A stretch of DNA of 50,965 nucleotides, counting the filler, from Sphacelaria rigidula (Eukaryota), in assembly GCA_964200075.2 (NCBI GenBank). It is 3 parts of 3 records of this genome, joined end to end, with 100 filler letters (N's around TTAATTAATTAA, not from the genome) between each part and the next. Parts side by side here need not be neighbours in the genome. Positions count along the whole stretch, not along the records: positions 1 to 16,924 come from CAXNAA020001216.1; 2 more parts are not named here. One strand, given 5' to 3'. The notes below the pieces were generated by a model, which had not been told where the DNA came from, made no database searches, and was given only the letters and a program-made list of their open reading frames with translations. The position numbers and the translations under genes are program-made. Shown one piece after another: positions 1 to 34,046 of this stretch. How positions within the stretch are numbered: the stretch's first letter is position 1; the number at the start of each line of letters is the position of its first letter.

Positions 1-1956
1 CCGCGCTCGGGTGCCCCCCGGCTGGGGCGGGGGCGTGGGGGGGGGGGGGGGGGGGGGGGTGGGGGGTGTTATCGACGTATTACTCGTTTGCGGGGGAACT
101 ACAACATGCTTTTGAGTGCATGAAATATATCGTCACAACATCGACACCCATACTATATACCCTTGGGATGGCCAGGGGCACCGCCGTTCGTTTGCGACAG
201 GACAAAACGATGGATACCACCGCAGAAACGACTACTTTCCCATCCATGGGGTACCATGCGTCCAACTTTCACGTGTGACATGACCAATCCACGTGAGATA
301 TTTTCCATTATCATAGTCGAACGTGCCACACACCAAATTTCCGACTCTTGATGACATGTTGAAAGTACTGAAACAGTCGACACAAAAGCGGGGTAACATT
401 AGCCCGTAAGTTGATCGAAATCCAAATGAATAGGTCAAGACCCGTGGGTCCACGTGCCGAAACTTGTCTTGGCGTGTGTGAAACCAAACTGCACCCGATT
501 TGGCGGCAAGATTTTCCCTGACTCCACGAATTCAAAAGCGTAGACGAATTTTCCGGGTTACATTTTCCCAAATACCCCGACTTGCCAATCTCGAATGTAA
601 TATGGCCATTTTCCAGTCAAGGGGGGCTATTATTGCAAAAAGGAACCTTGGATTCGGCGTCTTCACGAACTGCTCAGTCGGGGTACATTTTCTTCGTCGA
701 CCAAAGTTAGAATTTGGCACGCAAAACTTTGGCCTCGACGTTTTCCGGATACTTTGTGCTTCAACCCTTCAACAGCCTGCATAGGTCATCTATTGAATTG
801 GCATCAATTTCACTCGAAAAAATAACGCACATCACCCAAACTACCTCCCCTTGCGGCCGAGGAGCTGAGCAGCTTTCATGTTTGTGTGCCGAAAAAAAAA
901 AAAAACCCCCAACATCCCTGCGGGCTCCCCCCTCTTCTCCCCGCCCCAAAAAAACTACANNNNNNNNNNCCTTGGGGCCGGGGGGCGGGGCGGTTTGCAG
1001 GTTGGTGGGCGAAAAAAAAAAAAAAACGTGCCACTTGCAGGCGGCATCACTCGTTTACACAGAGCCGTTGATTATATGAATTTGCGTTGGCATGCAAACA
1101 TGCATACTTCGTACCCCCCAAAATATCTGCTTGATATGCCGCTCACACTTCTACGGAACAAATACCGACTACCAAAAGCCTGTTTAGAGGGCGAGGTTGC
1201 AGGACTCGGGGAACATGAGTAATGTGTTTCCCGCAGTTGTGTGAACTGATGATGACTCTCCGACGGGTACTCGCAGGATTATTTTCTCTTTATGTGGTTG
1301 TGTCGACATCACTCCCCCCTGCCCTGTGAGCTTCTTTGCAGGCCTTTGACGTGAAGGGGTGTGCAGAGGTGGTATTTTCCCGCCTGCGAGCGATGAGGAT
1401 ATTTGTGCACCATTCCTCATCTTGCATGTGCTGCAATGGCCAAGCCAACAATCTCCGGAGAAGGCTTTTTCTGGAAGGTTGTGAACACTGCTTGCTATGA
1501 TAGCCATGCGCCAACTTCGTCTCTTCCGTTTCTCGTCCAACCCTGGGATGAGCACTAATTGCTTGAGTTGGTCGGGATCGGGATTCGAATCCAATAGCTT
1601 CTGCTCACGACGCAACTAGAGCCATCACATGGTGTCACCTATACAAAAAGGTGACGAGTTCTCCATGGACACTAACCCCCTGATGTGGTATGATGGTGTC
1701 CGTAGTAGATCGTGAAAGATTTTGCTGCTCTTTCCGAGTGTCCTTTTAGCGACCGTTTTTGTTCACTGCACCTCCAGGCACGCCTTCCCCATATCCGCCC
1801 AACCTACTCCGGTATCTCCCCACCCCTGCTCGCGACCATGCATGAACATACCGCACATTAGTTATCGCGTCACAATCTATCAATCAACCAACCAACCGAC
1901 CAAGCAACAAGTCATTCAATATGGTCGCCACAACATGAACTCAACAAAAAACTCAC

Positions 1957-4900
1957 CACGGCCGCCTCCCAAGCGCATTCCTCTCGTTGCTCCTTTTCAT
2001 CAACCAGGCCGCCAGAGCCCGACTCCCGTTCGGCATTTCAATCCACGGACCATCTTCCACGGCCGACGACCTGGGCGAAGGCGCCTTCGTGGCTATACCG
2101 TTAGCCTTGGCATCATCAAAAGATGTGGTCATCTTGGGCACCATCGGCGGGAGGCCTACGGGCAGGGGCTCGGGCCGGACAGGAGGTCCAGTGGCCACCT
2201 TGAAATGCAAGTTCCGAACACGTGTTGAGTGAATCTTTTGAGCGCAGGCAAATTGAACACCTGAAGCAAACAGTCATTTTGCAAGCCAAACATAATGTTG
2301 ATGCCTACTTCACGGTTGGAAACATCTGTTCACACGAACGAAGGGTTGAAATCGACCACCGTCCGGGAAGCGGTGATCGTGATGATATGCAGTACACATT
2401 CGGTGCACCAGGCGCACCTTGTGGCCTGCCGAAACAGACATTGAAGGCATACCCCCGTCCTGACCGTCAGCGGCCTCAAACCACTGGTGGCCCAGCAGCT
2501 CTGTCGCCGAGGGAATCGCCAGAGAGGGGTCTGTCCCCAGCATCATGTCTATTGCATCTCTGTTCGTTCAAGTCCAGCAAAATACGTGGGTGAGGGAGAG
2601 GGTGGGGGTGAAAGGCGCTCATTTTTCAGGTTTTCATTAGAGTATGTGTGAGAATCGAAGTATTGTTAAATTCCTTAGAATTTGACACAATACGCAGCAT
2701 GCAGATACACACCATCATGTTCTGCTTTTTCAAAGAAAATGTACGTATTCCCTTCCCCTTTCTCCCCCGGCCACTCTCGATATTTCAACATTTTGGGGTC
2801 GAGAATCAAATCAGTACTCGTGCACCCAGTCCGTCTGCTCTCGCCACATTTCATTGGTTCTCGAAGCCTCAAGATTTCCAAGACGGAGAACAGATTCTGC
2901 TTAAAAAACGTCTAATCGGGATTCGAACTCATCACCTTCCGCCCCCAGCTGGCCGTCTGTGTCACGTTGAGACCGCCGGGCTGCAACACGTACATTCATG
3001 TGGATTTTCGTCATTCTCTGCGTCATTCGACGCAACAATCAGTGTGTAAAACTGTGGTTTCCAAGAGGGGGAAAGCCCTCCTGTTTTTGCTGTGATACGT
3101 GAGTCACGAACACATCGAAACAAAACAAAATGGAACCAAAAGGCTAACAAAGAAAATGAGTGGCGGCAGGCTATCATACAATGACGCATATCCACAGGCA
3201 CAGAAAATCTTGTTCAGACGCACAACATAAAACGATTGGAGCCAACAGGGCGAGCTCTATACTTCTGACGCGGGACTGTCAGGTAGGTAAGAGCCACGGG
3301 CTATCACCACCGACTGCTTCCTCCGTCGCCCGGCCAGTACGAGGGAACACATGAAACGACGCGCTCAGAGGCGACGACGTGAAAAATCTTTGTGTGTGAA
3401 TGATTCATGATATGCTGGTATGTTTTCAGCTGATATCCTCCACCCGCCACCCCAAAAAATGGCGTCCGGGCTGCTCTGATCCCTGGCTCAAGTCCGAATA
3501 ACCATGAGCCTGGGCATACGCGTAGCAACGGCCCGCTCAACCCTGGCCCCTCTACTCCCAGATGGGCGTTTTCTTGTCAGCAGCTACAAGAGCAGGTTTC
3601 ATCTATCTCCACTCCCTTTCAGCGAGTGTTTTTATCTTGTTTCATCTCCGGTATGTATTTCATTGACCACGGCTGGATCCCTGGGGGATCAATTAATTTG
3701 CGGCAGTCAATCAATCCCTCAATATATTTCCCGATCTCATGGACAATAGCGTCCATCGATATCCGAGTACAGTGCCGCATTCTGAAGGGGTCGGACAACG
3801 GTTATCAACGAGGAAAATACGGCATCAGACATTCGGGTACCGTCTGAGATCGCATGACACAAATTATACGAGTCGGTAGTTGTTTCGCTTGAAAAAAAGA
3901 GGGGAATAGCGCGTAAAAGACAACACATAGTCCACACACACACACATACATACACACGCACACGCACACGCAGCATTTCCTCCAGTGTACCATGAAATAG
4001 ATCATTTGGTTGTGTCATTCCACGGGAAGAAGTGACAGCTCCGGCAAATCCGTGATGCTTCACATGGATCCTCGGCATGATTTCGTCCGATATCCAACTT
4101 CGTGGAAAATGACGTGACATCGTATATCGTCTTCTTCTGTTTTTTGTCGTGCGGATTTCTCTTCTCGAAAGATCCTTGGTTATCAGAGGCAAAAAATCCG
4201 GCGTGCTCTCCACGCTCAACACCCTGGGAGAAAGTACTGTTCTGACCGTCCTCTGTTTTGTCCAAATTTCGATAAATATATTCAGTATCTTCGTTATTTT
4301 TCTTCAAATTGTATCGAGGTCGTGTTTATTCTGATGATATTCAACTCTTGCCTGCCGAGAGCAGACAGATCCGGCAACCCTGTGCTCTCCGCCGTAGCAC
4401 GGAAGCTCTCCAACGGCTCGCCCGCGGCGGCTCCAGAATCACCCATGAAGGAGGCGAACGCCGTAAGGCCTAGCGACACGATGTCAGCATCCCTGCAACC
4501 GTAACCAAAACACGACGAAATGGCCAGCGTGATGAGGTCAACTTGCATAAGCCAGCCAAATTGCCAAACACGGCACGTTCTTATACAGAAGTATTCCAAC
4601 TGGAGATGAAATACAGCAGTCCACGTAACTCTGTTGTTAAAGCTAGATTAGCGCCCCTTCAACTCCACCCAGTATGGCCTGCATCGTCATGAAAAAGTGC
4701 CGGATTTTTTTTTTTGGGGGGGGGGCATGAAGGAGCATGGAAATAGTTCCAACGACCTGCAATATTTCCAGTTTCTTCAAGAACCTATCCAACAATCCAA
4801 CACACACTACGCCCCGCCCCTGAAATCAGGAGTACGAACGGCGCTCCGTCTCGAAAGGGGTGCGCGTGGTCAACCATCAAAATACCGATGCAAACAACAA

Positions 4901-7900
4901 ATGGGTACGCCCCCATCCCCCAACCTCTGTAAGTAATTTCACCTGAAATCCTTGTCGGTAGTGGTTCCACCCGTTCCCTGCCAGTCGTCCATCGAGCGGG
5001 TTACTTTCTCCAGGTAGCATAGCTTTGCCGTCCCCGCTGCCTCCTCTGTGTTGCTCGGAGAAGAGAACAAGATTCTTCCCGGTGTGACGTGGCCGTGGAA
5101 AAGTCCCTGAGAGTGCAGCGCCTCCAGGGCCATAAGCACCCTGGGTATTCGGCAGGGAGCAGGGATCGTAGAGTACAGACATGCAGCACGAGCACCACTA
5201 CGATTAGTGCGCGTCGACTATACTAAACACCACCTAAACTTCGCCCGCACTTGTCGAGGGGCGGGTTCGAACAAAACTCTGAAATTGTGCGGAGAAATTT
5301 CGAACCGAAGAAAACAAGAGCGGTACAGCATACACGTTTTGGTTTCACGAATTGGATACAAAGAACGTATCTGGTGGATCATCTTTGAGAGGATTGAAAA
5401 TTAATCCTTACACGGCGATGTGGGTAGTCCATCTAGATCGCAATCATTTTTTTCAAGTGAAATTGATATCGATTCAGCAGGTGACCTACCCTTGCGGTCA
5501 AAGGGTTGACCATGAAAAAATGTATCGAGGAAAGGACTACATCAACCATTCCAAGAACTCTCGAACCGTAGTTCAACCCTCTGACCTCGAGCATAGGTCA
5601 TCTGTTGAATCGGCCATCAATTTCACTTGAAAATGAATGCATGACCAGATCGACAACAGTCGGGGTCACAGGGTTTATCTTACTCCTCGTCTACTCAAGC
5701 AATAAGCGAAATTGAGGCGGGGAGGATGTTTTCTGTCTATTGGTCTTTTGTGGAATCGAGAATCGCGACCGGAAACATTGAGGGCCCGTCTAAAACCCAA
5801 GGCGGTGAGAGAGTTGGTCGTGTCTTAAATCGGTATCAATTTTACTCCAAAAAAGTATGCATGGTCCAGATGGACTACCCTCGCGGTCCGAGGGTTAACG
5901 GGAGAATAATTATGAAGGCAAAGCTTTGATCTTGTTCATGGTTGTGACTGTACACGTTTTTTCATCATTCTGATTAGGTTAAGGCTGATGCCACTTGCTC
6001 AACGCCCTTTCAAACAACGCTGAAAAAAAACAATCATTTGGTGATAACCCCTTATACCGCGAGGGTAGTCCATCTCGATCATCCATGTTTTCTTCAAGTG
6101 AAAATGTTGCCGACTCAACAGGTGACCTACTCTTGCTGTATAAGGGTTAATTTTTCGAATACGGAAACGCGACGTAGATGACGTGTGCATGGGTTGTTCG
6201 GCTCATCATGGAGCCTGAACCACACACCAGAAGTTTACCAGTATTTTCTTTGTGTGACGCGCTGGGCTGTTCGCGTGTTTTCACGACGTCACGTCTTCAT
6301 ATCGAGACGAATTTGTACCTCCGATAAGAATGACGGGTGATTTCAGTTGTTCATGAGGTTTTGAACCGTCACAACCATGATCAACGGACATTTTTTCAAT
6401 CAAAATTCGTCTCTCGGTAAGAAACGGTCTGAGGGCGTGTCTTCGCAGATTCGTTTTCGGTCGAAAATGTGCGATGGAAAACAAAAACTCCGGTGTGATA
6501 GGTCGTAATTTTAACCATATTCAAAATTACCGATGGTTGAAATCACGACCTATCAGATCGGGATTTTTGTTTCCTACCGCACCTTTTCGATCGAAAAATG
6601 ATGCGCTAAGGGCCTGTCTTAGCACATGAGTTTTCGATCGAAAAAGTGCGGTGGAAAACAAAATTATGATCTGATAAATCATGATTTCAACCATCTTCAA
6701 AATAAACGACGATGGTTGGAATTACGGATTATCAGATCAAGATTTTTTTTTCCACCGCATTTTCTTTTATCGAAAACCAATTGCTGAGACAGGGCCCGAA
6801 ATAGCAACTTTCATGGCAACGAATCTCGATTTTTTTGAGACCCTGATTTGGAGAACTCAAATTCCCGAACTCAAAATCGGGGGGACCGTTTTATTGTACA
6901 GAGAGTAGAGTACCACAGATTTGTGAAACAGTTCTGTACAGTCATTTCTTGCATGAGTGTGGTACTGGGTCCTCGTGCATGACGCTGAAGAGCAGGCAGG
7001 CGGTAGACAATCCTTCGAGTACAGTGTCGTCCTTGGTACCCTAGGGTACTAGAGTGCAGGACACTCCATCACTACAGTACACGATGCCGTGTGGTAATAC
7101 ATGATGGCACATCGGTATTGCAAGAACAGAGAACATGCACGAGCAGTGCGGTATATCACCCCTCAAGTACAGCGGCAACAGCTAGGAGAGAACAGTAGCG
7201 TTCGTTAGAGTGATACATACGGCAGCGCAGCGCAGCATGAAATATTACCATCGCCGCAGGGTACAGCGTCAGCACTTATTATCCGCTTGTCAAACCCCGT
7301 GCGAAGTTGCTTCAGCGCCTGGCGCGGGCAGTAGGCACGCCCTGCGCTGTCACGAGACTATCTTCTGCTACCGTTGCAAAAATATCGTACGGGGAGTCGC
7401 AATCTCGGAACGATTTCCCCAGATTAAAAAACCCCCGAGGGAAATCGTTGCGAGATCGTGACTCCCTGATTCTTTCGCCTCCGATTTGGTCCATATCGGT
7501 GTCCATGAAATGCGTTCCCCGACTTCTTCCCCTCGATGCTCTAGAAAATCGAGATTGGTGACTGCCATAGAAGTTGGTCTAAGACACGACCTGAGAGGAA
7601 ACCTTCTACTACTCTAAGATTTTTCTCCCTGTTGTTAGCACTTTCTCCCCTTTCTCATTCGATCAAGTTTCCGGAACAAACATCCACCTTCATAGTCTGA
7701 AACAAGACAAAAAAACAGGGAGAAAAATCTTAGATAGGGTCTTACAACATGAAAAGTGATAAACAATAAACATTTAATGTTGAATGCAGATCAGAGGTCT
7801 ACCAAAGACTTTTTATTGCCGTGTATAATACTTCCTCCAGCACAGAAGGAAAGTCGGTTATGCTTATACGGGCCCTTGACTGTGTCCGATGACGTTAGCG

Positions 7901-10900
7901 ACGATATTTTCTTAATTTTTGTCATTTTTTTGGTTGAATCCTGTTCTTCCCTTCTTTTCTTGCGCAGCCTCCAGCATGGATCAGCGGCTAAAACGAAGGC
8001 AGTTGACCCAGAAATGGACGTTTTCCCCCCGTTTTCCGGAAAAAGTGGAGAAAAGCTGAAACTCGGAAAAACGGCGGAAAAAGCAAGACTATGCACAAAA
8101 ATGGTTTTTGTTTGCGCTCCATGATTGATAGACGATACCTGCGCCTCGTCTGAAAGCGTGTGGTCATGTTTTGGAGTACATACACCATACACACAGGCAC
8201 AAATCGTCCAAATTCAGCCGCAAACGGTGCAAATTGGACGGAATCGGCCTAAATTTGATCAAATTTAACCCACGATTTCTTTACAATACCAGCTCGTTTT
8301 TTTTTTCGTGAGCATTTCCGTCACTGTATCTTCTCAAATAATCTAACTACATCATCTTACACGCTTCCGTTCAAAAGTTATGATCCGTGCCCCATAACCG
8401 ACTTTACTTATGTGTTGGAGGAAGTGTATGTATTCGCCATGTTCCAGCGATGCTGAGATACCGTTATTTTCTGCATGCCATCCTGAATGTCTAAATCAAG
8501 ACGATGAGACGATCTCTACCCTTGACAGCGGGTCTGAGCCGGCACGATGGACCGCGGGGCTGCGCAGGCACTAATGGGCACTGCAGATAGTGAACAGAAA
8601 TGGGCTTTACCGTGAACACGTGAAGCAAGATGGCCGCAAACCTTGAAGACATCATCGATGGTGAAAACTATATTATTCAATCGTTCGACACAGAGTTCGC
8701 GTAAAAACAAATGAATAGTTCAGGCGCCCCGTACTATATTTCAGCAAATCGCGGAATAGGGAGTGGAGCATGACTTGCGTCTGCCTGACTTGGGCTGGCT
8801 GTCTAGTGACCGGCCGACAACTGGTGCGTTCACAATACCGTATGCAAAGCCAAGCATACAAGCGCTCAACGACCCGAGGCATGGCACCATCCGGAGCGGG
8901 CCCCAGCTCTAACCCACAGCACATCTCCAGCAGTATTTGCATTGATATACACGCACACGGCACGCCGTGTTTCCACCACCTTAGTCATTGCAAAATGGCC
9001 AAAACACGCAGAATGGTAGTCGCATGGAATGACAAGAAAAGCCCGACGCGCCGTTCCACATAAACTTGCACCTTGCAACGAAACTTGATGTAAGGAGTTG
9101 TGGGAAGCACTTTCTCGACTCCGTGCGCACGACGGTGAATCTATGGTATACTTGAGGGGGGTTTGGTGCTCGAGGGGCCGACCTTTCGACCGCTACGGTA
9201 GATCATCTGGATATTGCACGCATTTTCAAAGTGAAAATGATGCCGACTCAAGCGACGAGTCACCCTGGAGCCCAAGGGGTTATCCTTCTCACTACGGAGA
9301 GCTTGAGACCGTCATCCCAAGAGAGGCATTTTGCGAAACTCAGCACACGAAAGTAATACTTGCCTATTCAATGTACGTGGACTCAACTGGAGTGATTCGC
9401 TGCTAGAGAGGTGGGGGGTCGCCTGTGGCTGGGAACGCCGTAGCGGCCGACGCTACTCCAAAAACAACCATCCACAGCATCTGTACAGTAAACACAAAAC
9501 TGCAGCCGAAGACATTTTTCCCTCGGGAATCATCCCGCAATTGAGCAACAGGAGCCGGTTGTGAGCCGATATCATCTCTGCCCAAGTTGAGTCATGCCAA
9601 TCATGACCGGGGCTACCCCACTAGGCAAAACAGCCACAGGCTTCAAGGTTGGGCATCCCTTGACGTGATCCCCTTGTGGCCCAAGGTTATCAGTTTGCGT
9701 GAGGTCCGGGTTGCCTGATTTGGTCTCTTTCTGCATTCCATTAGCGGGAGTCCCCACGTATATGGATATTAGCATGTACGGCGCACCAGCGGTAAACGGT
9801 TGCGCTATAACTTTTTCTTGTAAGGCCATGTAAACCCCCCGATATGTTCACATATGGTCATCGACCGTCGGGCGTATTTCGGTAGCATTCTTGGTGCCCC
9901 CCGTCCATATCCATGTCCATCTGTTATGGTGCACCGACTGCTAACGCGCAGTGCTCACACTGACAAAGCGGTATGGGCTTCGCCTAGGACGGTGATACTT
10001 GCGCCGTAGGCGCGGTGTGGGTGACTTGTGTGTTTGCTGCTGTGCGGCAGCCTTATATGTTGAAGGTGCCTTACATGCGGTCGTCATTAGGCCATGTCTT
10101 ACCGGCGGCGATAATCTTCCACCTCCGCCCCCCGCCCCCCCCTAATGAAGTTCATTCTCGAATGTGATTCCTGGTTTCGGGATGTTACTGCATCTCTGAC
10201 GAATCCCTCTGAATTTCGCCAAAATCAGTTGGGCTGTTCACGCAGTGACGCTTGTTTTACTGTACTGCTGACACCTCCATTCACACGCACCCCTTCACAC
10301 AGCGTGAGAGAAAAATATGTACTTTTTAGCATATACCTCTCATCGAGTAGATAGCGGCCGAACTCGTGTGGAACACTTTCAATCTGGGGCGAGGCCATGG
10401 GGGAAGAGGACAAAGGGGGCACTAAGCGCAAGATTGGAGGGGCGGGGGGGGGGAAATGAACTGCTCCATTTCCACCTGTCACGATGAACGCCTGGTGGCC
10501 GGGCTCCGATAACGGCCTCCCTTTCTTGCGGGACAAGTTGTAACGTTTTGACATGTCCTGGTATGCAGAACATCAAAATTTCAGCCATTCTGCCACGTTC
10601 CTCTCCGGTACTTGATTCATCGTGCTGAATGATTCTTTGGCAGTTTGTGCTGCATGTCGGATCACTGGGCATCTCTAGGAGGAACGGGGGGCAGAAATCT
10701 CACAGGAATTCATACGAGACGGCGGGTGGGCTTTCACGTACCGTCCTGTTGTTTCTTCCGAGACGGGTTTGTTCCAGATCGGCGCCATTATACTGATGTG
10801 TTTTTGTTTCAATGCCGGTGACCCCGATCCAAGCTATACCGGGAACTCTCGGGCAAAAGGGGTTGCAATGGGTGCCTCAAGCACAGAGTGCGCGTTGGCA

Positions 10901-13900
10901 CGCCTCACATAGGCGCCTGTGGCAGTGATTCGGACAAAAACGTCTCCTGCGAGCGCCGGGGAGGACTTGGGACCGTCAGCCCAACTATTATAGAGATACC
11001 ATGCTCAACTCAATACAAACTCTACTGTTTTTGGCAGCGAACTTCACGTCCCGTCCGACAAGTTCCCAACTTTCCCGCCTCGTGCTGTTGTTTGGGACAA
11101 CATAAAACATCCCTGTCCTATCCCGCCCAACCATAACAAACCCTAAACCCTGTATACTTATACTCCCCTAAAGAAGGGATAAAGGGTACTCTATACAACA
11201 AGTATTGAAGGACTCATGATCGTTTCACAACGGTAGAACTCGCATGTTGAAGGCGCACGCAAGTGGCACATCATCTGCAACTGCACTCACCCTTCGATGT
11301 GTACGCGTCCCCTGTTCGATCATGATGTTGCCCACAGACAGACGCGAAGCACGGGGACAGATGGACCTTCCCTAGATATATTCGAATCTTCAGTCGAAAC
11401 ATGCACACGCTGTACAGCTATTACCGTTGCGCACCATGCACGATTGAAGAGTGCAGCAGCCCTATGATTTTCTCATCTCGACACATGTTGTGGTAGATTA
11501 TTTCCCACCACCGTTCATTGATGTTGGCCAACTTGACCGTCACGGCGGAACAATGTTTCCAAGGCATTTCGGCCATTTGCAGCTAACCGTGGACGTTTTC
11601 TTGGTGCAAGCGGGGTGGGGACGGAGTGGGGTGTCGGGACCACGCGGCGACAACACGTGCGGGTGAACGCGCACACGTCGTGGCTCGGGTAGAGAGCTAG
11701 CCGAAACCATACCATAATGTGCCACTGCTATTAGAACAGATAATGTATGCGTGCACTTGCAAATCGCCCCGGGACTCGAAGCAGTCGGTCAGTCGCATCT
11801 CTCGATTACTTCGACTTCAAAGATCAAGTGAGAGGATCAAAGGTAACACTTGGAGGTGTAGATGGCTATATTCTTCTAGACTCGTGGGCCGTGCACGACC
11901 GCATCAGGATAAGGTTGGCAATACGCGACCACAATGGCACATGAACTTTCGGACGTCTTCGTTTGTGGACGTGTACCGATCAACACGTGGCCTGACGTGA
12001 ACCGCACACTGTGATCCAACGGCTTTGGACTATAATACGAGAGCGATGTCACATACACACCACATGATCAGACGTACTGCACAGCATACAGAGGTTGAAG
12101 CCGTGGAGGTAAGTGAGAACCGCGGAGGAACAAACAAGTGAATTTTTCACGTACGTACAACTTACCGTACGGTTTTCAGTATCATCATGAACTCGCGTGG
12201 GTATCAGCGTTTCAAAATTCTTCAAGGTGCAGTTCAGGTGTTTCTCACACTTTTGTTATCGATTCAAGGTACAGATGCACCGGACTCGCACCTCTACGAA
12301 TATGAAACCGCATGGCGAGAACAAAAATCAGGGCTAACTGCGGAGAAACGCGTGTGACGTACTCACTCGTTACGGCTGACTCTGACATCACACGGGTACA
12401 TGGAGATAACTTTGACCGATATCACGCACATGAAATCCACGACAGCTCGGCGAAATACTGCTGCTAGTTGCTGTTGCCGCACCCTGAGAACCAACGTGAG
12501 ATGCTCCATTGTGTATGCTGATATGGGAAGCTTATTTCGTTCGTCACGTACCGATCACTATGCTGGGCTATAACCATAGTGCGTAGTTGTCTGGCTGCTG
12601 TTGTGTATTCTCTTGTGATGTACTTTGAAAAGAATCTCTGGCCAAAACTCCACATAGAAAAACACACGAGGTCAGTCGACAGATGAATGTTCTCAGGTCT
12701 ATTTGAATATTGATGGTATTTTCAGATATCAAGACCGCAAGCACAGCCCATCATGAGCTGTCACAGGGTGCAGGCTGCGCAGTGCATGCTGAACGAGCAC
12801 GAACATATCGCACGTAAGAAGACAGAATCCTTCAAACACAAGAAGCGCTGCTGTCAAGGCGATCGGCGATCCGAGTCTGTGTCGTTGACAGGTTGTCTTC
12901 GTACCACCGACAGGTTGGCCGTGGTAAAACCGGAGACGCCAAAACCGGCAACCTAGGCACGCCGGAGCCAAGGGAAGGCATGGTTGATATGTGGAAGGCC
13001 GGTAAACTCCGAAAAAAAAATACGTGGGAAGATCACTCGAGCAAGCAACGTACAAAAGTACTAGTGACTGCACTGTCCTCTCGAAGCCCACTGCCTTTCG
13101 TCTGCTTTCACGAATACTATAATTACTACAGAAAGGTACGCTCAACAGAACGGAACTAACCCTGAGTGGACCAACCCCACTGCGGGTACGCGTACCACCG
13201 GCGTTCCGCTACCCCCGCTTGACCGCGGACCTTCGAATGTGCGCCACTTGCCACACGTCATCACCCTCGTAGAAAGTACGACTTCATCTGCACAATACCA
13301 GGGTGTACGGACGATAGTGATCACCGTTCGTACTTTTGCCGCACTACGATGCAATGAGCTGATCGTCTAGCTTCATGTACGTGCTCACCGGTGAACCATA
13401 GTCTTCACTTCCCCCTCTGTGAACTGTCGCCCGGTACCCAGGAGGTCCGTCAAGCTTCCCCCAGGCATGTGCTCATATATTAGATAGCAGAATCGATCCT
13501 AAGAGGTGTTGCAGTACCGGGTCGAGAGGGGAGTAGTAGCAAAAAAATCACTAGTTTAATTCAACATTGATGGACAACCGTGCCGTCCGCACACCCCCCA
13601 GAACCAGAGCAGGACGTGGGACATCAAAGGCCGCGCAAACGTCCACTGATAAACTGTACGGAGCCAAAAAAAGGCAGAATAGTTAATCCGCCTGTTTGGA
13701 GAGGTCGTTCATACAACGGTCGCAGGTGCTGCTGGTCGACGTGTTACCGCAGAGTGACTACCCTCCGTTTCATGTTGACCCTTCGTGGTGCACCTGGGTC
13801 AAAGACTGAGACGTGCCGAGGATATCATATTTGCTTGATTGCAGCACATGGCACAAAAGCAATTGTGCCACAATTATCGAAGGACTCGAGACCGTAGATA

Positions 13901-14283
13901 CTACGACCAGAGCATCACATGCGAAACAAGTGAGAATTTGGACACACAGGTGGAGACGGCGACATTTCAAATATCGATCTCTCATACAAAAGCAAACGCT
14001 CGCTATACTCGACCATCAGAACACATACCTCAGGCTCCATGATGACATCTTGTAGCGCGAGTATGCATGGGTGCTTGGCCTTTCTGAAAGTTCGAATGTC
14101 CTCCCCGACTTGCGCCCTCTCTTCATTTGTCAGGCCAAATATGAACAAGCACTTGACGAGAGCTTTCTTTGACGGCGTAGCCCGGGTTTGGCCTTCGTGA
14201 AGAACGAAAGTCTCTGTCTTGAGTACCTCACGACCTAGCTTGAACAAATCAGAAAAAGACGTGAAGTTGGAATCGGCGGTCAT
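1957..14283 (-). CDS. Multi-exon CaMK-like pseudokinase with the start of a probable C-terminal PH domain (3' end not resolved)
   Basis: Manually spliced, phase-compatible exons: 14283-14029 (MTADSNFTSFSDLFKLGREVLKTETFVLHEG..KALVKCL..EDIRTFRKAKHPCILALQDVIMEPE|GTATGT); 13498-13389 (TAG|DRFCYLIYEHMPGGSLTDLLGTGRQFTEGEVKTMVHR|GTGAGC); 5140-4943 (VLMALEALHSQGLFHGHVTPGRILF..AKLCYLEK..DKDFR); 4492-4352 (DADIVSLGLTAF..LPDLSALGR, GC donor); 2559-2453 (DAIDMMLGTDPSLAIPSATELLGHQWF); 2260-1957 (Pro-rich linker then ALAAWLMKRSNERNALGRRPW|GTGAGT). Kinase subdomains appear in the correct order. An upstream acceptor opens the first exon at 14323, so the start codon is uncertain. Confidence 0.85.
2914..2981 (-). 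pseudogene. Degenerate tRNA-derived SINE-like head
   Basis: The reverse strand reads GCCCGGCGGTCTCAACGTGAC..GGTGATGAGTTCGAATCCCG. It has the same GCCCGG start and a B box like the 46.3-kb element. Confidence 0.4.
3933..3972 (+). repeat. (CA)n / (CACACG)n compound microsatellite
   Basis: CACACACACACACATACATACACACGCACACGCACACGC. Confidence 0.85.
5401..6150. mobile_element. Cluster of four family-A piggyBac-like MITEs (5401-5509 -, ~5573-5677 +, ~5791-5898 +, 6044-6150 -)
   Basis: Same internal motif (GAATCGGCATCAATTTCACTTGAAAA..CCAGATGGACTACC, with variants) and AGGGTTAA/AGGGTTGA ends as the 48.9-kb array. Confidence 0.8.
6433..6797. mobile_element. Two adjacent fold-back MITEs, Tourist/PIF-Harbinger-like (family B)
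   Basis: Copies at 6433-6609 and 6610-6797, each a hairpin with ~80-bp arms. Termini are GGGCGTGTCTT / GGGCCTGTCTT..AGACAGGGCCC, preceded by TGA/TAA. Related ends occur at ~38324, ~38953, ~39595-39736 and ~50710. Confidence 0.7.
7392..7734. repeat. Two short inverted-repeat elements (hairpin 7392-7466; TIR element 7613-7734)
   Basis: GGGAGTCGCAATCTCGGAACGATTTCCC / GGGAAATCGTTGCGAGATCGTGACTCCC, and TCTAAGATTTTTCTCCCTGT / ACAGGGAGAAAAATCTTAGA. Confidence 0.7.
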
Positions 14284-14816
14284 CGCACCGTGGCACTGCT
14301 CAACCAATGGTAAAACAGGTGACCTGCAAACTTCCTCCAGTGCAAAGTGTCGCTGTCGCTGTTACCACTGCTGTTGGTGGTGGTATTGTTGGTGTTGGTG
14401 TTGGTGCTACTCCTGCTGCTTTATGCTGATGTTGTTTTTACCCAGTACAGGTTGACAGCGGAAGATAATCCCGGATGAATGCAGATAGATGCTAAGTGTA
14501 GCATGTGGTCATTCGTTATCTCGTACAGTCGTCATTTTCTACCATTTATTGTGCTCCAACCGCGGGCTTGAACAACAGCTGTGTGAAATAGTATAATAAA
14601 GGAAAAGCCAGCATGCACTTCTACCGACCGCCGGTCAGAGCAGAGCAATGTCAAACGAATCACAGGTATGACATCACCATCAACGCACCCAACGTGCAGA
14701 CGAACCCTGTGCAACGACGCCTTCCTTGTCGATACCAGACGCTCAGCAGCCGGAGACGCGCGTCAATTTTCACGCGTATTTCACTTGCGTGTTAGTATTC
14801 TCCCAACTCGTACGCA

Positions 14817-15005
14817 ATGGGACGCGGTGGTGATGCAGGTGCCTTCGTGGCGCCCGCCAAAATTTTCGTGGCTGAGCACATCGTTTCGAAGTCGCCCCTG
14901 TCTGACCGACCTGTCGAGGAGCTCAGGAAGCTCGCCGAGCAGCGTGGACTAAAGAACGATGGAACTAGAGAGGACTTGCTCGTGAAGCTCAAGCCCTTTG
15001 CTAAG
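14817..15005 (+). CDS. FAD2: Exon 1 of a delta-12 (omega-6) fatty acid desaturase with a SAP-like N-terminal module; remaining exons not found before the scaffold end
   Basis: MGRGGDAGAFVAPAKIFVAEHIVSKSPLSDRPVEELRKLAEQRGLKNDGTREDLLVKLKPFAK followed by donor AAG|GTGTGC. The MGRGG start and EELRK.A...G......RE.LL..L.P(F/Y)A resemble, from memory, the N-terminus of Nannochloropsis-type delta-12 desaturases. No His-boxes are visible in the window. Confidence 0.65.
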
Positions 15006-15923
15006 GTGTGCCATATGCGAAGTGTTCTTAGAGGAGAGAGCGATAAAAGTTCGGTACAAAATTGGTTCGTCATCGTCCCCAATGTGCAGTCCCAACAGAC
15101 CGCTTGCTGTGTGTCGTGGGAGTACGTGGCTCCATTGAGAACTGCTTCGTCTGTGAGAAGTCTCCTCTCATGGCATGGCTTGAGGCATGCGAACAGCGTG
15201 AGCTTCGAGTGAAGGAAGAATGCATGCCCGGTTTGGATCTCGTGGCTGATGCCAAAAGCGGTGGCGCCAGAATTGCCTGAGGCAAAATTTGTACGTGTCT
15301 GTTTTGCTTTCTGTTGATTCCCAGACATGTCGCGTCATGCTGACGTTTGAATCAAAAGATACTGATGAGATTTTGTACCGATTTGTAACGCTCTGCACTT
15401 CCCTCGCGCTCTCGACTCTTTGTTCACATATCTGTCTCGCGAACAGCATTTCGAAATTACAAGCCCAGTCATTAGCCTCTTCGATTGCTCCTCTGATCCA
15501 GTAGAATTTGATGCACATGGATGTGATGGATTTTGTGCACGAGGGTAGGAAAGGAAAGCCATTATGTTGTATGACACGCTGACATTCACTGAACTCTCGT
15601 TCCAATCGCTATCAGAATACCGTTCAAAACAACTGTCTGTCATCACGGAAGACAACAGACAGCTGCCACGGCAGTGCAGCTGCGGACAGATATTAACAGG
15701 TTTACATTCCGATATTACGGTAAAGTTCAGGACCGTATCATCGTCCACACTCGTGCATACTTTGAGCCCAAAGCAATTCTCTTTGCGCGACGGCAACGCA
15801 TGCAGGCCCTGGATTCCGGACAAGGCTGCGATGCTACAGTAGATGCTACAACAGTCAGTAGTACAACTGTAGTAGACCGGACAGTTTTGGCCGTGAAAGA
15901 AAAGAAACGCGGAGGAAAATGAG

Positions 15924-16810
15924 GACGTCATCGACTGGTCGGAAGGACGTGTGCCGAACCTCCGCTGAACAGAACAGACGTTCTATCCCGAGTTACCTAG
16001 GTTTGGTATGCGACAGTGAATTTTTTTCATCGCCTCGTTCTTGACATGGGAAGCAAACCGGCCTGTGGCCGTTCGCGCCCCTCCGTACCACCCTAAACCT
16101 AGGGCGTACAGGAGCGGATGTGATCAATCCACCATAGGTGACCCGAGTAGCCCCAGAGCGTCGAAGGAAACGCGCCTCTAAAGTACATTCTGGATTTGGT
16201 GCAGCGGCTGTGTGCTGCTGCCTCTGATGCAGTGCGCATTCCGGAGAACCATCCCAACAGTCGCTTGTTCCGGTGTGTGGGAAGCACACGCATCAAAGGC
16301 CGCAGTCCAACACTTTGCTTGGTTGCCTAGACAACCTCGTTGACACAACAAAACACAGTACTGCAACACGAGCAGCAGCTCCTCTCTCCCTGCTGTTGTA
16401 TCCCTGTGCATAGGTGTACAGCAACGTCAGTCATGGCCTTGTCGCAGCATGTACTACAGTTATTGGGGTGAAAAAAGGCCTTACCGACCAAAAGTTCGTT
16501 TCCCACAAAAAAAAAAATGCGGAGGGATATTGAAGACGTCATGGACTGTTCGGACCTGTGCCGAGCATAACACACGCTCCATCCGAAGTTACCTAGGTTT
16601 AGTGTGCCACAGATGTAATTTTCTCCTCGCAATTATCTCGAGACAAAAAGCACAACGACCTCTGGAACATCACAGCCCCCCGCGCACACACTAGACCCAT
16701 TAAGCGCTGTAAGCGGGTTTGCTCAATTCGCCACAATGGACCCGAAAAGCCCCAGAACGTTGCAGGAAACGCGTTTTCAATAGATTTCGTGTTTCATACA
16801 GCAGTTTGCG
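15924..16810 (+). repeat. Diverged ~290-bp direct duplication (~15924-16210 and ~16535-16810)
   Basis: Shared ordered motifs: GACGTCAT.GACTG, AGTTACCTAGGTTT.GT.TG, GACCCGA..AGCCCCAGA.CGT...AGGAAACGCG. Confidence 0.6.
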
Positions 16811-16924
16811 AAGTTCTGCGGCCTCCGCGGCACGCATTACGAAAACCTGCTTGCAACACTTGCACGGTTAGGACAAATCATCATGACTCAAAATCACCAA
16901 ATTCACGACTTCTTCGGCCTGATT

Positions 16925-17024
16925 NNNNNNNNNNNNNNNNNNNNNNNNNNNNNNNNNNNNNNNNNNNNTTAATTAATTAANNNNNNNNNNNNNNNNNNNN
17001 NNNNNNNNNNNNNNNNNNNNNNNN
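16925..17024. other. Artificial scaffold-concatenation spacer
   Basis: 44 N + TTAATTAATTAA (stop codons in all six frames) + 44 N = exactly 100 bp. Confidence 0.97.
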
Positions 17025-26300: not shown

Positions 26301-29300
26301 TTGATTTGAAAATAAAAACGGGCTCATGGAGCTCGAGTCCAGGCGCAGCATGACCTCTAGGCCTATGTTCCCCTGATAGGTATTCATCTAAAAAACGAGT
26401 CGTTCATGATATCGATATGGCATTCATACAACACAGCTTCTCCACGTATTTTTACAACCTGTAATTAACACGACTTCGCTTCTTCGCCATGTGTTGTACA
26501 TATTGACGACTAGCTGCCCACACGCATGCGAATACTCGTGCGCAATTTGTACATCCTTTCACAACTTCTCTTTGTACTTGAAAAACCTTCCAAACTTATC
26601 CTGATGACTGCTTCATGGTAACTGAGCTTCGACGCATCTGTCATACCGTCGACTTCATTCGTTCCCCCAGGGCCGCTTGAGCTTGTGCAATTTGGCTGCC
26701 CTACGCTCCACTCAGCCCTTGCCGCAGAGGATGGCCATGCATCAAGGTGCGGGCCTTGGGATGGCGATGGCGGGATCTGGAGAGGATGTCAGTGCCAGGA
26801 AGATCTTCATCAGGGGACTTTCGTGGTGAGGAAAAGCGCACGACTCAAAAAATACAACTGACCCTCGCTTCGTTCGAATGTCGCATCGCGTAAACGTCAC
26901 GGAGTATCTTGACGTAAAGAATATCTCTCGTGATTCGGTTCCAAGCCAAATCATGAGCAAATTGCTCGGGGGGCGCTCGTTTCTTCCGTGAACAATGACA
27001 CTCCACTCTTGTGCAGGCGCACGTGCTGATCTCGCATGTCTTACGCTGCTCGTGTAATATTCGTTTCGACGAGTCGTTTGATGGCAATTTGATGAAAACG
27101 TCTCGGCCCCGGGACCAATATTTGAGCAATGTTGAGCTCACCTCAAATGCTGGAAGTCATGGTTTTCCAGCTGTCACCTGTGATCATGACTCCAAAATAC
27201 ATGAAATTTTTGAAACGTGTCACGAAACCCTGGCTCATGTAGTATAAAGAAGCGCTCGTTCCACTCATGGTCCCGGCGTTCGGCCCGGGGCCTATCTGAG
27301 AACATTTGATACCGGTGGGTTGAATCGGCACCAACTTACCTCTCATCGGTTGCGTACTTTTAACATGGAGTCGAGACCAGCGGGAGTATTTCTGGATGAC
27401 TTCCCGTCTGCTTTTGTCGCACTGTTGTAACGCAGTTGGGGTAGCACCCCCATCGCACGTGGCTTGACTCCCAAGTTTGACTTGATGAAGAGTTTTTCGC
27501 CGAGTTTGTCTCCGTTTCTAGTCATGAAGCATGCCGTCAGTTTCCGATCAAGCAACGCATTTGATTTTTGCAGGGACACCACAACAGAAACTTTACGCCA
27601 AGTATTCTCTCAGTTCGGAGAGCTGGAGGATGCCATCGTGACTATGGACCGTCACTCGAATAAGTCAAAGGGCTACGGCTTCGTCACATTCCGCTATGCT
27701 GCCAACGCTGCCGCTGCGGTTGTGGAGCAGGAGAAACAGATCGATGTGAGTACCTTTGCGCAGCTTCCCACTGCCCGTGCAATTGAAGCGTGCTTGTCGA
27801 AGGTGGTGAATATCGAGAAAAACAAGCCCATGCTGTTGATTGTAGATTGTGCGAATTTTTCAACAGCACGACTGGAGTATGTTGATGGAATACTTGACTC
27901 GTACATGGTTTAAGTATATTATCTGCTGATTTTTCCATCTGCGCACTCTTTCGACGCATCGAAAACATGCGCATCGACACCGCGCCAGGCGTTGGTGAAG
28001 ATGCTGGGTTTTCGAAGTACGGAACTTTTAGCTGGCCTCTCCACCGATGGTGCTCCCCATGGAGCGGGAGAAGACGTTTCGCAGCACGTCAGCCGAATTC
28101 CTGAAGAATCTTGATGAACGAAACGGAGATGCAAATAAGGGAGGGGTGTACTCTCTGATCGTCAACTCGTTGCCACCTGCACATCTTTCACAGCGAACTG
28201 AGGACAACTTGATATGAATTACGCGTGCTATCATTCCGATAACTGCTTGAGAACAGACGGGGTGAAGTGCAGTCATGATGACTGTGCCCTTCGTTTGCTT
28301 GGAATATTCTGGTGGAACCGCTGCTGTGGCGAACGCAGGGTATCCAGTTGTATGTACAATACCTCACGTGAGCAAACGTTGTTATGCGCGAACAGGGCCG
28401 CCTTACTCACTGCAACATTGCCGCAGAGGGATCTTCAAACAGGGGGAAGCACCAAAACTACGGCGCCCAAAATGCCCAACAGTGGGGAATGGGACAGCAG
28501 CAGTACCAAGCTCAAGGTGAGTTGTCTTCGTCCGATTCTGCTCTCTTCACACCAGTGGTGCCGGGTATGCGCTTGATATCATCACGTTGTTCCACTTTCG
28601 CATCGCCGATAGGGAAAAGCCGCTAAACCGACCATTCGCCGCAACTCGGATAACCCACCCAGGTCAAGGGTCGGGGCAATGGGGTGCTGCCGCTGTGCAA
28701 GGGTATGGAGCTCAAGGTCAGTGGGGACAGCAGTACGGAGCTCAGCAACAGGTGAGATGACATCTTCGCTGGCGTTATATCTAGATGGAATCGCTTCGCC
28801 GAGATGGAAAAACCACACGCACAACGTGATGCTCAAAAGAGGGAAAAAAACATGCCCACCTCACATTGTTGAATCTCCTTCTATATCTGGACACCGGTTA
28901 GTTTGATGTTCGACAAGGCAGCCCCCCCCCAGGTCGAAGTGGAAGAAGTGATAACTCGTCCATGACGTTCCGATGCGGACATTCCAACCTCTGCAAGAAG
29001 TCAGTTGAAGGTCCGAACAAGTTGGAATGTTATTAAAACCGAAATTGTTTTTTCCCGACACGGAAGGGTCGAATCCAGTACCACTGCCATGAAGCCTAGG
29101 TAACAGACGGCAGGTCGTGGTGTAGAGTGTAATATCCGAGCTCAGTCTGTCCCAAACCAAGTATCATTCTTCCTAAAGGCGATCAATACTTGGGTGCCAC
29201 CCCAACTCTGTACATACCGAAACACCGTATGCAGCACGACATCTGTCCCGGCTCTCTCCAGCGCCCACCGCACCGTGATCGTGGAGTGTTTGACTGCAGA

Positions 29301-33946: not shown

Positions 33947-34046
33947 NNNNNNNNNNNNNNNNNNNNNNNNNNNNNNNNNNNNNNNNNNNNTTAATTAATT
34001 AANNNNNNNNNNNNNNNNNNNNNNNNNNNNNNNNNNNNNNNNNNNN
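33947..34046. other. Artificial scaffold-concatenation spacer
   Basis: Identical N44-TTAATTAATTAA-N44 structure. Confidence 0.97.

What the first reader, a model, noticed from the sequence alone, without database searches (positions are those of the whole stretch)
1957..14283. Intact, spliced CaMK-like pseudokinase that has lost nearly every catalytic motif and is fused to a probable PH domain
Seen: six exons splice in phase with no stop codon over ~370 codons. The Gly-loop GxGxFG is replaced by LKTETF, HRDLKPEN by HGHVTPGR, and DFG by YLE, and no APE motif is visible. The beta3 Lys (ALVK), hinge (YEHMPGGSL), alphaF (DIVSLG) and subdomain XI (DP..SATELLGHQWF) are kept. After a Pro-rich linker comes AAWLMKRS..GRRPW, which resembles beta1-beta2 of a PH domain. 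Established: loss of the catalytic Asp and the DFG Asp defines pseudokinases. Inference: this is a maintained, possibly membrane-targeted scaffold pseudokinase of a lineage-specific, uncharacterised family.
Basis: partly seen in the sequence, partly recalled or inferred. Interest (0 to 1): 0.7.

Follow-up and report, generated by a model that had tools for sequence, protein, structure and literature searches.

The report
Ancient algal dead-kinase adaptor protein
This is the front end of a spliced brown-algal gene for a kinase-shaped protein that has lost its catalytic residues and is joined to a membrane-binding-type domain and a domain normally found in ubiquitin-removing enzymes; relatives in distant algae have the same layout, so it is most likely an undescribed adaptor protein.

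Summary
Six minus-strand exons give 362 codons without a stop. All five introns, one GC-AG, are joined in contigs of three putative RNA runs of one study and not in a DNA-like run; intron 5 is 2199-2417. The window holds only about 1.3 kb of a 6.8 kb contig. Full-length relatives (Ectocarpus, Chrysoparadoxa, chrysophyte-type sequences) read pseudokinase - Pro-rich linker - PH - helical region - DUSP (domain in ubiquitin-specific proteases) - acidic tail, with no protease domain. The DUSP end and stop lie on another contig. No family member examined has the HRD or DFG aspartate or APE. The replacement loop HGHVTPxR stands in 22 of 23 brown-algal-type rows. The kinase domain is 76% identical to Ectocarpus against 42% for the linker. 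The nine family kinase domains form one clade beside CaMK-type kinases. Best reading: a catalytically dead, probably membrane-recruited adaptor tied to ubiquitin-pathway partners. Function is untested. No description was found in seven literature searches. A new variant of a known kind; interest 0.5.

The parts
14284..14473 (-). 5' untranslated part of exon 1 (about 190 nt; contig end, not a mapped start)
   Evidence: RNA-type contigs begin at 14469-14473
14029..14283 (-). Exon 1 coding part, aa 1-85: N-lobe with degenerate Gly loop (EVLKTETFV, 14229-14203), beta3 Lys44 (14154-14152), alphaC with Asp in place of Glu
13499..14028 (-). Intron 1, 530 nt, GT-AG
   Evidence: joint in X1, X2, X4
13389..13498 (-). 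Exon 2: beta5, hinge YEHMPGGSL, start of alphaE
5141..13388 (-). Intron 2, 8248 nt, GT-AG, with high-copy repeats
   Evidence: joint in X1, X2, X4; DNA depth up to 87,490 at 6822-7353 against about 70 in unique parts; repeats
4943..5140 (-). Exon 3: alphaE, dead catalytic loop HGHVTPGR (5097-5074), YLE in place of DFG (5016-5008), short activation segment without APE
4493..4942 (-). Intron 3, 450 nt, GT-AG; joined whole, so no hidden APE exon
4352..4492 (-). Exon 4: alphaF (DIVSLG) and following C-lobe helices
2560..4351 (-). Intron 4, 1792 nt, GC-AG
   Evidence: joint with CT..GC ends in X1, X2, X4
2418..2559 (-). Exon 5: alphaH-alphaI, HQWF end of the kinase fold, start of linker
2199..2417 (-). 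Intron 5, 219 nt, GT-AG (corrects the sequence-only model 2452-2261)
1957..2198 (-). Exon 6: Pro-rich linker, then PH strand 1 and basic loop (2012-1957)
   Evidence: PH in orthologues
1..1956 (-). Start of intron 6; the gene runs off the contig. The next exon is seen only as a 30-nt loose end; the last two exons (DUSP end, acidic tail, stop) lie on G000:C15422 (L015, 6925-6773 and 6360-6006, minus strand)

Best explanation
A catalytically dead, CaMK-derived pseudokinase that works as a three-module adaptor. Shown: spliced gene, kinase-family domain without catalytic Asp, metal-binding Asp, Gly loop or APE, conserved layout pseudokinase-PH-DUSP in several ochrophyte classes. Inferred mechanism: (1) the basic PH loop brings the protein to anionic membranes; (2) the pseudokinase domain, with its activation segment cut short and its catalytic loop fixed as a new conserved surface, binds a client protein and probably needs little or no ATP; (3) the DUSP domain, the best-conserved module, binds a partner of the kind that DUSP domains of USP4/15/11/20/33 bind (substrates, targeting factors, ligases, the protease itself). 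The protein would thus steer ubiquitin removal or addition to clients at a membrane, much as Tribbles pseudokinases bring clients to an E3 ligase. My odds: about 0.9 that it is a maintained non-catalytic protein, about 0.5 for this adaptor mechanism.
For: Splicing. Pfam Pkinase + PH + DUSP over cut-off in P0014, P0015 and P0026; in P0032 the cut-short DUSP scores E 4e-6, under the cut-off. No UCH hit in these. HRD Asp absent in 23 of 23 brown-algal-type rows and in the 6 distant rows. Beta8-to-alphaF distance 31-33 (brown), 18-23 (5 chrysophyte-type rows), 40 without APE (Chrysoparadoxa) against 35-54 in 11 active kinases. Kinase domain 194/255 identical to Ectocarpus, linker 33/78. Family clade 99 SH-aLRT. 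Family DUSP set apart from the three UCH-bearing DUSPs in the tree (97), about 46-48% identical between Ectocarpus and chrysophyte-type proteins (P0034, P0048) against 26% for the kinase domain. DUSP as a binding and regulatory module: passages of PMC7935551 and PMC4624187. Tribbles precedent: passages of PMC10211241.
Against: No partner, localisation or activity is known. The PH lipid-binding motif is only partly kept (W-T-R-R-W here, W-Q/H-R-R-W in Ectocarpus), so lipid binding is unproven. What a DUSP binds outside a protease is unknown. The middle of the window's own gene is missing from the assembly, so its link to C15422 rests on orthology. About 4.2 kb of the RNA contig is not accounted for by the expected coding sequence. 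The family-only AlphaFold model left the C-lobe under pLDDT 50; confidence rose only after 11 active kinases were added to the alignment. 9 of the 23 motif rows are Ectocarpus near-copies and 13 are unnamed single-exon fragments.
Confidence: 0.5

Rival explanations
1. Allosteric regulator of an active kinase: the pseudokinase domain pairs with a CaMK-type kinase (as STRAD with LKB1, recalled), perhaps binding ATP without metal, while PH and DUSP only set location.
For: N-lobe, hinge and beta3 Lys are kept in most members (Lys in 17 of 19 brown-algal-type rows; Lys and alphaC Glu in 5 of 5 chrysophyte-type rows). CaMK ancestry; the genome holds other kinases.
Against: The Lys is Glu in Hapterophycus and Val in Chrysoparadoxa; the Gly loop is filled with large side chains; the DUSP is better conserved than the kinase domain across classes.
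Confidence: 0.25
2. Decoy: the free DUSP competes with DUSP-bearing proteases for their partners and so dampens deubiquitination, under control of the pseudokinase and PH modules.
For: DUSP without a protease domain in the full-length members; the genome has other DUSP matches (3 places).
Against: The family DUSP forms its own clade with its own conserved residues, which suggests its own partners rather than mimicry.
Confidence: 0.12
3. Atypical active enzyme with migrated residues (like WNK or POMK) or with another transferase chemistry (like SelO), using the brown-algal His139, Arg144 and Glu166.
For: His at the catalytic position and Arg at the Asn position in 23 of 23 brown-algal-type rows; an acid in YLE/FLE/FLD in 22 of 23. 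Precedents in section 4 of PMC10211241.
Against: None of these residues is shared with Chrysoparadoxa or the chrysophyte-type rows, where the catalytic position is R, M, A or G; the substrate-binding P+1/APE part is gone in all.
Confidence: 0.07
4. In this species the gene encodes a longer protein with further domains (for example a protease domain) in the unseen part of the 6.8 kb transcript.
For: Only about 1.3 kb of the contig was laid; the middle exons are not in the assembly.
Against: The last exon on C15422 ends in a stop at the same place as in Ectocarpus; the 6 kb behind it has no open frame over 132 aa and no match to a USP; orthologues end after the acidic tail.
Confidence: 0.05
5. 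Decaying pseudogene or chance reading of exons.
For: Loss of nearly all kinase motifs.
Against: Exact splicing, no stop, same substitutions in distant brown algae, domain conserved far above linker.
Confidence: 0.01

Closest known systems
CaMKII / CaMK1 and other CAMK-group kinases (MNK2, RSK C-terminal domain, STK33)
   Same: Best sequence-profile hits among solved structures (CaMKII delta E 5e-31); best fold matches (Foldseek E 7e-13; VIA Z 22-24 for several kinases, tied); N-lobe, hinge and HPWF end alike.
   Different: No Gly loop, HRD Asp, DFG or APE; Pro-rich linker where the calmodulin-binding segment would stand; PH and DUSP appended.
Tribbles pseudokinases (TRIB1-3)
   Same: Pseudokinase lacking the DFG Asp with a C-terminal module tied to the ubiquitin system, acting as a scaffold (passages of PMC10211241); CAMK-group origin (recalled).
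   Different: Tribbles use a short COP1-binding tail; this family has a folded DUSP and a PH domain and has lost more motifs. An analogy, not shown homology beyond the kinase fold.
DUSP-bearing ubiquitin-specific proteases (USP4/15/11; USP20/33 type P0164)
   Same: DUSP domain (Pfam PF06337, E 1e-10 to 2e-12); weak matches to solved USP15/USP4 DUSPs (E 0.006-0.02).
   Different: No UCH catalytic domain, no UBL; the DUSP is C-terminal to a pseudokinase and PH.
Kinase-PH proteins (GRK2; oomycete PH-CAMK proteins)
   Same: Kinase followed by PH (GRK2 ranked first for the low-confidence first model); PH-CAMK proteins in Phytophthora (passages of PMC3019232; P0144).
   Different: Those are active kinases, with no DUSP; 'DUSP' occurs 0 times in the main text of PMC3019232.
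Database entries CBJ49161 / UniRef100_D7FQQ4 (Ectocarpus siliculosus) and CAM9228993
   Same: Same gene family.
   Different: Split or cut models named 'conserved unknown protein', 'DUSP domain-containing protein', 'unnamed protein product'; the N-lobe is a separate entry (P0194), which hides the full layout.

Membership tests
Pseudokinases (protein-kinase fold lacking VAIK Lys, HRD Asp or DFG Asp) | Protein-kinase domain | tested here: met
   Pfam Pkinase 52.3 bits over cut-off 31.7 for P0001; model of orthologue P0015 matches kinases at Z 23.6, rmsd 3.5 over 233 residues, with the caveat that active kinases were in its alignment
Pseudokinases (protein-kinase fold lacking VAIK Lys, HRD Asp or DFG Asp) | HRD catalytic Asp missing | tested here: met
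   His in the window; Asp in 0 of 23 brown-algal-type rows and 0 of 6 distant rows
Pseudokinases (protein-kinase fold lacking VAIK Lys, HRD Asp or DFG Asp) | DFG Asp missing | tested here: met
   Tyr or Phe at that place in 23 of 23 rows; S or F in the distant rows
Pseudokinases (protein-kinase fold lacking VAIK Lys, HRD Asp or DFG Asp) | No phosphotransfer; nucleotide-binding class | not testable with these tools
CAMK group (CaMK1/CaMKII) | Kinase domain groups with CAMK kinases | tested here: inconclusive
   Top profile hits are CaMKII/CaMK1; quick tree puts the family beside CaMK-type rows at 86 SH-aLRT, long branches, no named reference kinases, careful search unfinished
CAMK group (CaMK1/CaMKII) | Catalytic motifs intact | tested here: not met
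CAMK group (CaMK1/CaMKII) | Autoinhibitory / calmodulin-binding helix after the kinase domain | tested here: inconclusive
   Pro-rich, low-confidence linker (pLDDT under 50, residues 273-355, no helix) in the model; no dedicated motif search
Tribbles pseudokinases | C-terminal E3-ligase (COP1) binding motif | not tested
   Motif known to me only from memory; not searched. The C-terminus here is DUSP plus acidic tail
Tribbles pseudokinases | Tribbles among the closest relatives | tested here: inconclusive
   Not among the 60 rows shown of 1370 nor the fold rows shown
DUSP-bearing ubiquitin-specific proteases | DUSP domain | tested here: met
   Pfam over cut-off in orthologues; second half found in the own genome on C15422
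DUSP-bearing ubiquitin-specific proteases | UCH catalytic domain | tested here: not met
   No UCH hit in P0014, P0015, P0026; none behind the stop on L015. The unseen middle of the window's own gene could not be examined
PH domains | Complete PH fold | tested here: met
   Pfam PH E 2e-10 to 1e-8 in Ectocarpus, 3.5e-11 in Chrysoparadoxa, 3.7e-8 in P0032; no PH hit in P0031/P0177; the window itself holds only strand 1 and the loop
PH domains | Phosphoinositide-binding K-Xn-(K/R)-X-R motif (recalled) | tested here: inconclusive
   First Lys and last Arg kept, middle position T/Q/H in brown algae, K or R in distant rows

The most novel reading that the evidence does not exclude
The protein supplies a DUSP domain in trans: the PH and pseudokinase modules pick a membrane and a client, and the DUSP docks on and activates a separate ubiquitin protease, as the DUSP-UBL of USP4 does in cis. 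That would be a deubiquitinating mirror image of Tribbles, older than the brown algae.
Probability: 0.12. Interest if true: 0.75.

Novelty: new variant of a known kind. Interest (0 to 1): 0.5.

Why it matters
Pseudokinase scaffolds are well known, but I found no description of one joined to a DUSP domain, nor of any pseudokinase family in brown algae or their relatives, in the searches run. The family has kept a dead kinase domain, a PH domain and a protease-free DUSP together across classes that split before the brown algae arose (about 450 million years ago). It is a natural test of what a DUSP does alone and of how small a kinase C-lobe can become (18 residues from beta8 to alphaF in chrysophyte-type members). 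Ectocarpus has the gene, so it can be studied. It answers no long-standing question directly.

Tried and rejected
Sequence-only intron 5 (2452-2261): open but not used in the RNA contigs. A hidden APE exon in intron 3: the contigs join straight across it. A JAK-like active kinase or a USP domain downstream, my guess from the 6.8 kb contig: orthologues show neither. Single exons against Pfam: only exon 2 gave a weak Pkinase hit, E 0.03. Search for exon 7 and the middle exons in the own genome: no match; the assembly is in 27,214 pieces, so this shows nothing about the gene. dN/dS: not computed, because two metagenome scans returned no relative's DNA. First AlphaFold job with a family-only alignment: mean pLDDT 42.6, C-lobe unresolved; its GRK2 matches have TM about 0.2 and are given no weight. 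Complex prediction of pseudokinase with DUSP: no answer, score 0.00, alignments not used; no evidence either way. ESM Atlas: generic kinase and kinase-PH clusters for the whole protein, no usable hit for residues 480-760. No run is on record as RNA; the four candidates are guesses of the tool; depth was not used to rank genes. Range outside the named classes: most hits carry no taxon, so absence from diatoms, oomycetes and others was not tested. Earlier findings of the scan: none by sequence, words or place. C1215 is not a neighbour of the window's first contig (same length class, contigs appear sorted by size).
Full report
Observation. The gene lies on the minus strand of the window's first contig (G000:C1216). 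My first splice model was open over 371 codons. I then laid 3 of the 4 putative RNA runs and 1 of the 4 other runs found on 970-16900. One contig in each of X1, X2 and X4 (6874, 6831, 6811 nt; one study) skips exactly 530, 8248, 450, 1792 and 219 nt, with GT-AG ends except a GC-AG fourth intron; X5 covers the region as unbroken DNA and has none of these joints. The corrected model has 1088 nt, 362 codons and no stop. The tool marks these runs as RNA only by guess, but precise intron removal is what RNA shows. The identical database record P0001 covers only exons 1-3 and is labelled Sphacelaria rigidula.

What lies beyond the window. The contigs go on past 1957; the loose end in X2 continues the frame as W-T-R-R-W-F-V-L, the second strand of a PH domain. 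That exon and the middle of the gene were not found in the assembly. Searching with P0001 gave three Ectocarpus proteins at E 1e-14 or better among 6 hits, and their clusters hold full-length forms of 825 and 828 aa. These score Pkinase, PH (356-474) and DUSP (617-697) over Pfam's cut-offs and nothing else but the related kinase family. DUSP here is PF06337, the domain in ubiquitin-specific proteases, not a dual-specificity phosphatase. With P0015 as query the own genome gave the six window exons and two exons on C15422: the second half of the DUSP (about 80% identical to P0025) and the tail with a stop. That both contigs belong to one gene is inferred from orthology, not bridged by a read. 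The expected coding sequence is about 2.45 kb, leaving some 4.2 kb of the RNA contig, most simply a long 3' UTR; the 6 kb behind the stop has no frame over 132 aa and no match to a USP.

The family. A search of 1.84 billion representatives listed the best 150 of 6549 hits. Among them are a 780-aa protein of Chrysoparadoxa australica with all three domains, a 569-aa unnamed protein with all three (DUSP cut short), and proteins that cluster at 90% with Synura sphagnicola and have the kinase and DUSP hits but no PH hit. Named fragments come from Choristocarpus tenellus (N-lobe), Hapterophycus canaliculatus (N-lobe) and Phaeothamnion confervicola (DUSP only). I call P0032, P0105, P0110, P0127 and P0177 'chrysophyte-type' because they group with the Synura-linked sequence; their taxa are not on record. 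In a quick tree of 90 kinase domains the nine family rows form one clade (99 SH-aLRT; P0110 was left unlabelled in the script but is a member), next to CaMK-type rows at 86; near-duplicates P0031 and P0178 and domains covering under 190 profile positions were left out, and branches are long. A profile of 11 members finds CaMKII and CaMK1 first among solved structures. Brown algae and Schizocladia split about 458 million years ago (passages of bioRxiv 10.1101/2024.02.19.579948); that Chrysoparadoxa, Phaeothamnion and Synura branch earlier is recalled. So the layout is older than the brown algae.

How dead is it. Among stored proteins at least 45% identical to the window model, 23 cover the catalytic loop: 18 HGHVTPGR, 3 HGHVTPAR, 1 HGHVTPSR, 1 HAHVTPAR, none with Asp; the same 23 have [K/R]LC[Y/F]L[E/D/Q] for the DFG strand; none of 19 has a Gly loop; beta3 Lys stands in 17 of 19, with Glu in Hapterophycus and one misaligned row. 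Nine of the 23 are Ectocarpus, one is the window's own record, 13 are unnamed fragments. In the six distant members the catalytic position is R, M, A, G, G, G and Chrysoparadoxa has Val for the Lys. The stretch from beta8 to the alphaF Asp is 31 residues here, 33 in Ectocarpus, 18-23 in chrysophyte-type rows and 40 in Chrysoparadoxa, against 35-54 in 11 active kinases; no member has APE. By the definition in section 4 of PMC10211241 this is a pseudokinase on two counts. It is not decaying: the domain is 194/255 identical to Ectocarpus while the linker is 33/78; it is 35% identical to Chrysoparadoxa and 26% to P0032. I could not compute dN/dS.

Structure. Both models are of the Ectocarpus orthologue. 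With 11 family rows the C-lobe stayed under pLDDT 50. With 31 rows, 11 of them active kinases, residues 11-160 and most of 191-270 reached 87-97, the activation segment stayed low, and alphaF extends into a long helix (182-206); PH and DUSP reached 50-78 and linkers under 50; pTM 0.41. Part of that confidence is borrowed from the added kinases. Fold searches return kinases over residues 6-274. The ATP pocket could not be inspected.

Mechanism. Shown: the layout and the loss of catalysis motifs. From established knowledge: DUSP domains bind substrates and partners and, in USP4, speed ubiquitin exchange (passages of PMC7935551; PMC4624187; listing and abstract start of PMC4243247); Tribbles pseudokinases bring clients to an E3 ligase (passages); PH domains often bind anionic lipids (recalled). 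Inferred: PH sets the place, the pseudokinase surface binds a client, the DUSP recruits a ubiquitin-pathway partner. The family DUSP has seven invariant columns in 20 rows and its own S-x-R-R..PGP and GGGP..GPP..RW pattern, and lies apart from UCH-bearing DUSPs in a quick tree of 53 rows. The PH loop is basic in all rows shown but lacks the middle basic residue in brown algae. I put this mechanism at 0.5, a kinase-regulating partner at 0.25, a decoy at 0.12, an atypical enzyme at 0.07.

Novelty. Seven searches aimed at the family listed no paper on it; I saw listings and abstract starts only, and one search's three hits concern phosphatases. The brown-algal genomics preprint has 0 occurrences of 'pseudokinase' and 'DUSP' in its main text; its supplements are closed and may list the family among orthogroups or fused genes. 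The library lacks most subscription papers, and automated pseudokinase catalogues (recalled, not seen) may hold these sequences without comment. Databases carry it as split, unnamed models. Verdict: real, expressed, conserved; a new variant of a known kind; interest 0.5.

Noticed in passing
window 14817-15005, + strand: A head-to-head gene starts 533 nt from the pseudokinase ATG; its first exon encodes a SAP domain (Pfam E 4e-6). RNA-type contigs of the two genes begin at 14473 and 14736, about 260 nt apart, which suggests a two-way promoter.
   Followed up: partly
window 16925-17024 and 33947-34046: Runs of N around TTAATTAATTAA: the window is three unlinked contigs (C1216, C1217, C1218) joined by a linker, so nothing beyond 16924 is a neighbour of this gene.
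   Followed up: yes
window 5408-7466 and 7830-8425 (intron 2): High-copy repeats with hairpin and terminal-inverted-repeat structure (arms 7830-7862 / 8393-8425, 91% complementary, 530 nt apart; nested hairpins at 6441-6763), like non-autonomous DNA transposons.
   Followed up: partly
G000:C15422 (L015) 1-6005: About 4.2 kb of the RNA contig is not explained by coding sequence; a 3' UTR of that length would be unusually long.
   Followed up: partly
window 27431-27910, + strand: Exon of an RNA-recognition-motif protein (Pfam RRM_1 E 1e-11), on another contig.
   Followed up: no
P0127 and P0048: Both are recorded on contigs of 6598 nt from the same sources; probably one family gene split by a gene caller into kinase and PH-end/DUSP parts, the latter with a long extra tail.
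   Followed up: no
P0141, P0139, P0147, P0152, P0168: Other proteins with a DUSP and no UCH hit, one with two DUSPs and a RING finger; some may be fragments, but protease-free DUSP proteins may be more common in protists than described.
   Followed up: no
G000:C10263, C21694, C18953 (L017-L019): Three other DUSP matches in the genome; none matches the family DUSP of P0015 or P0025.
   Followed up: partly
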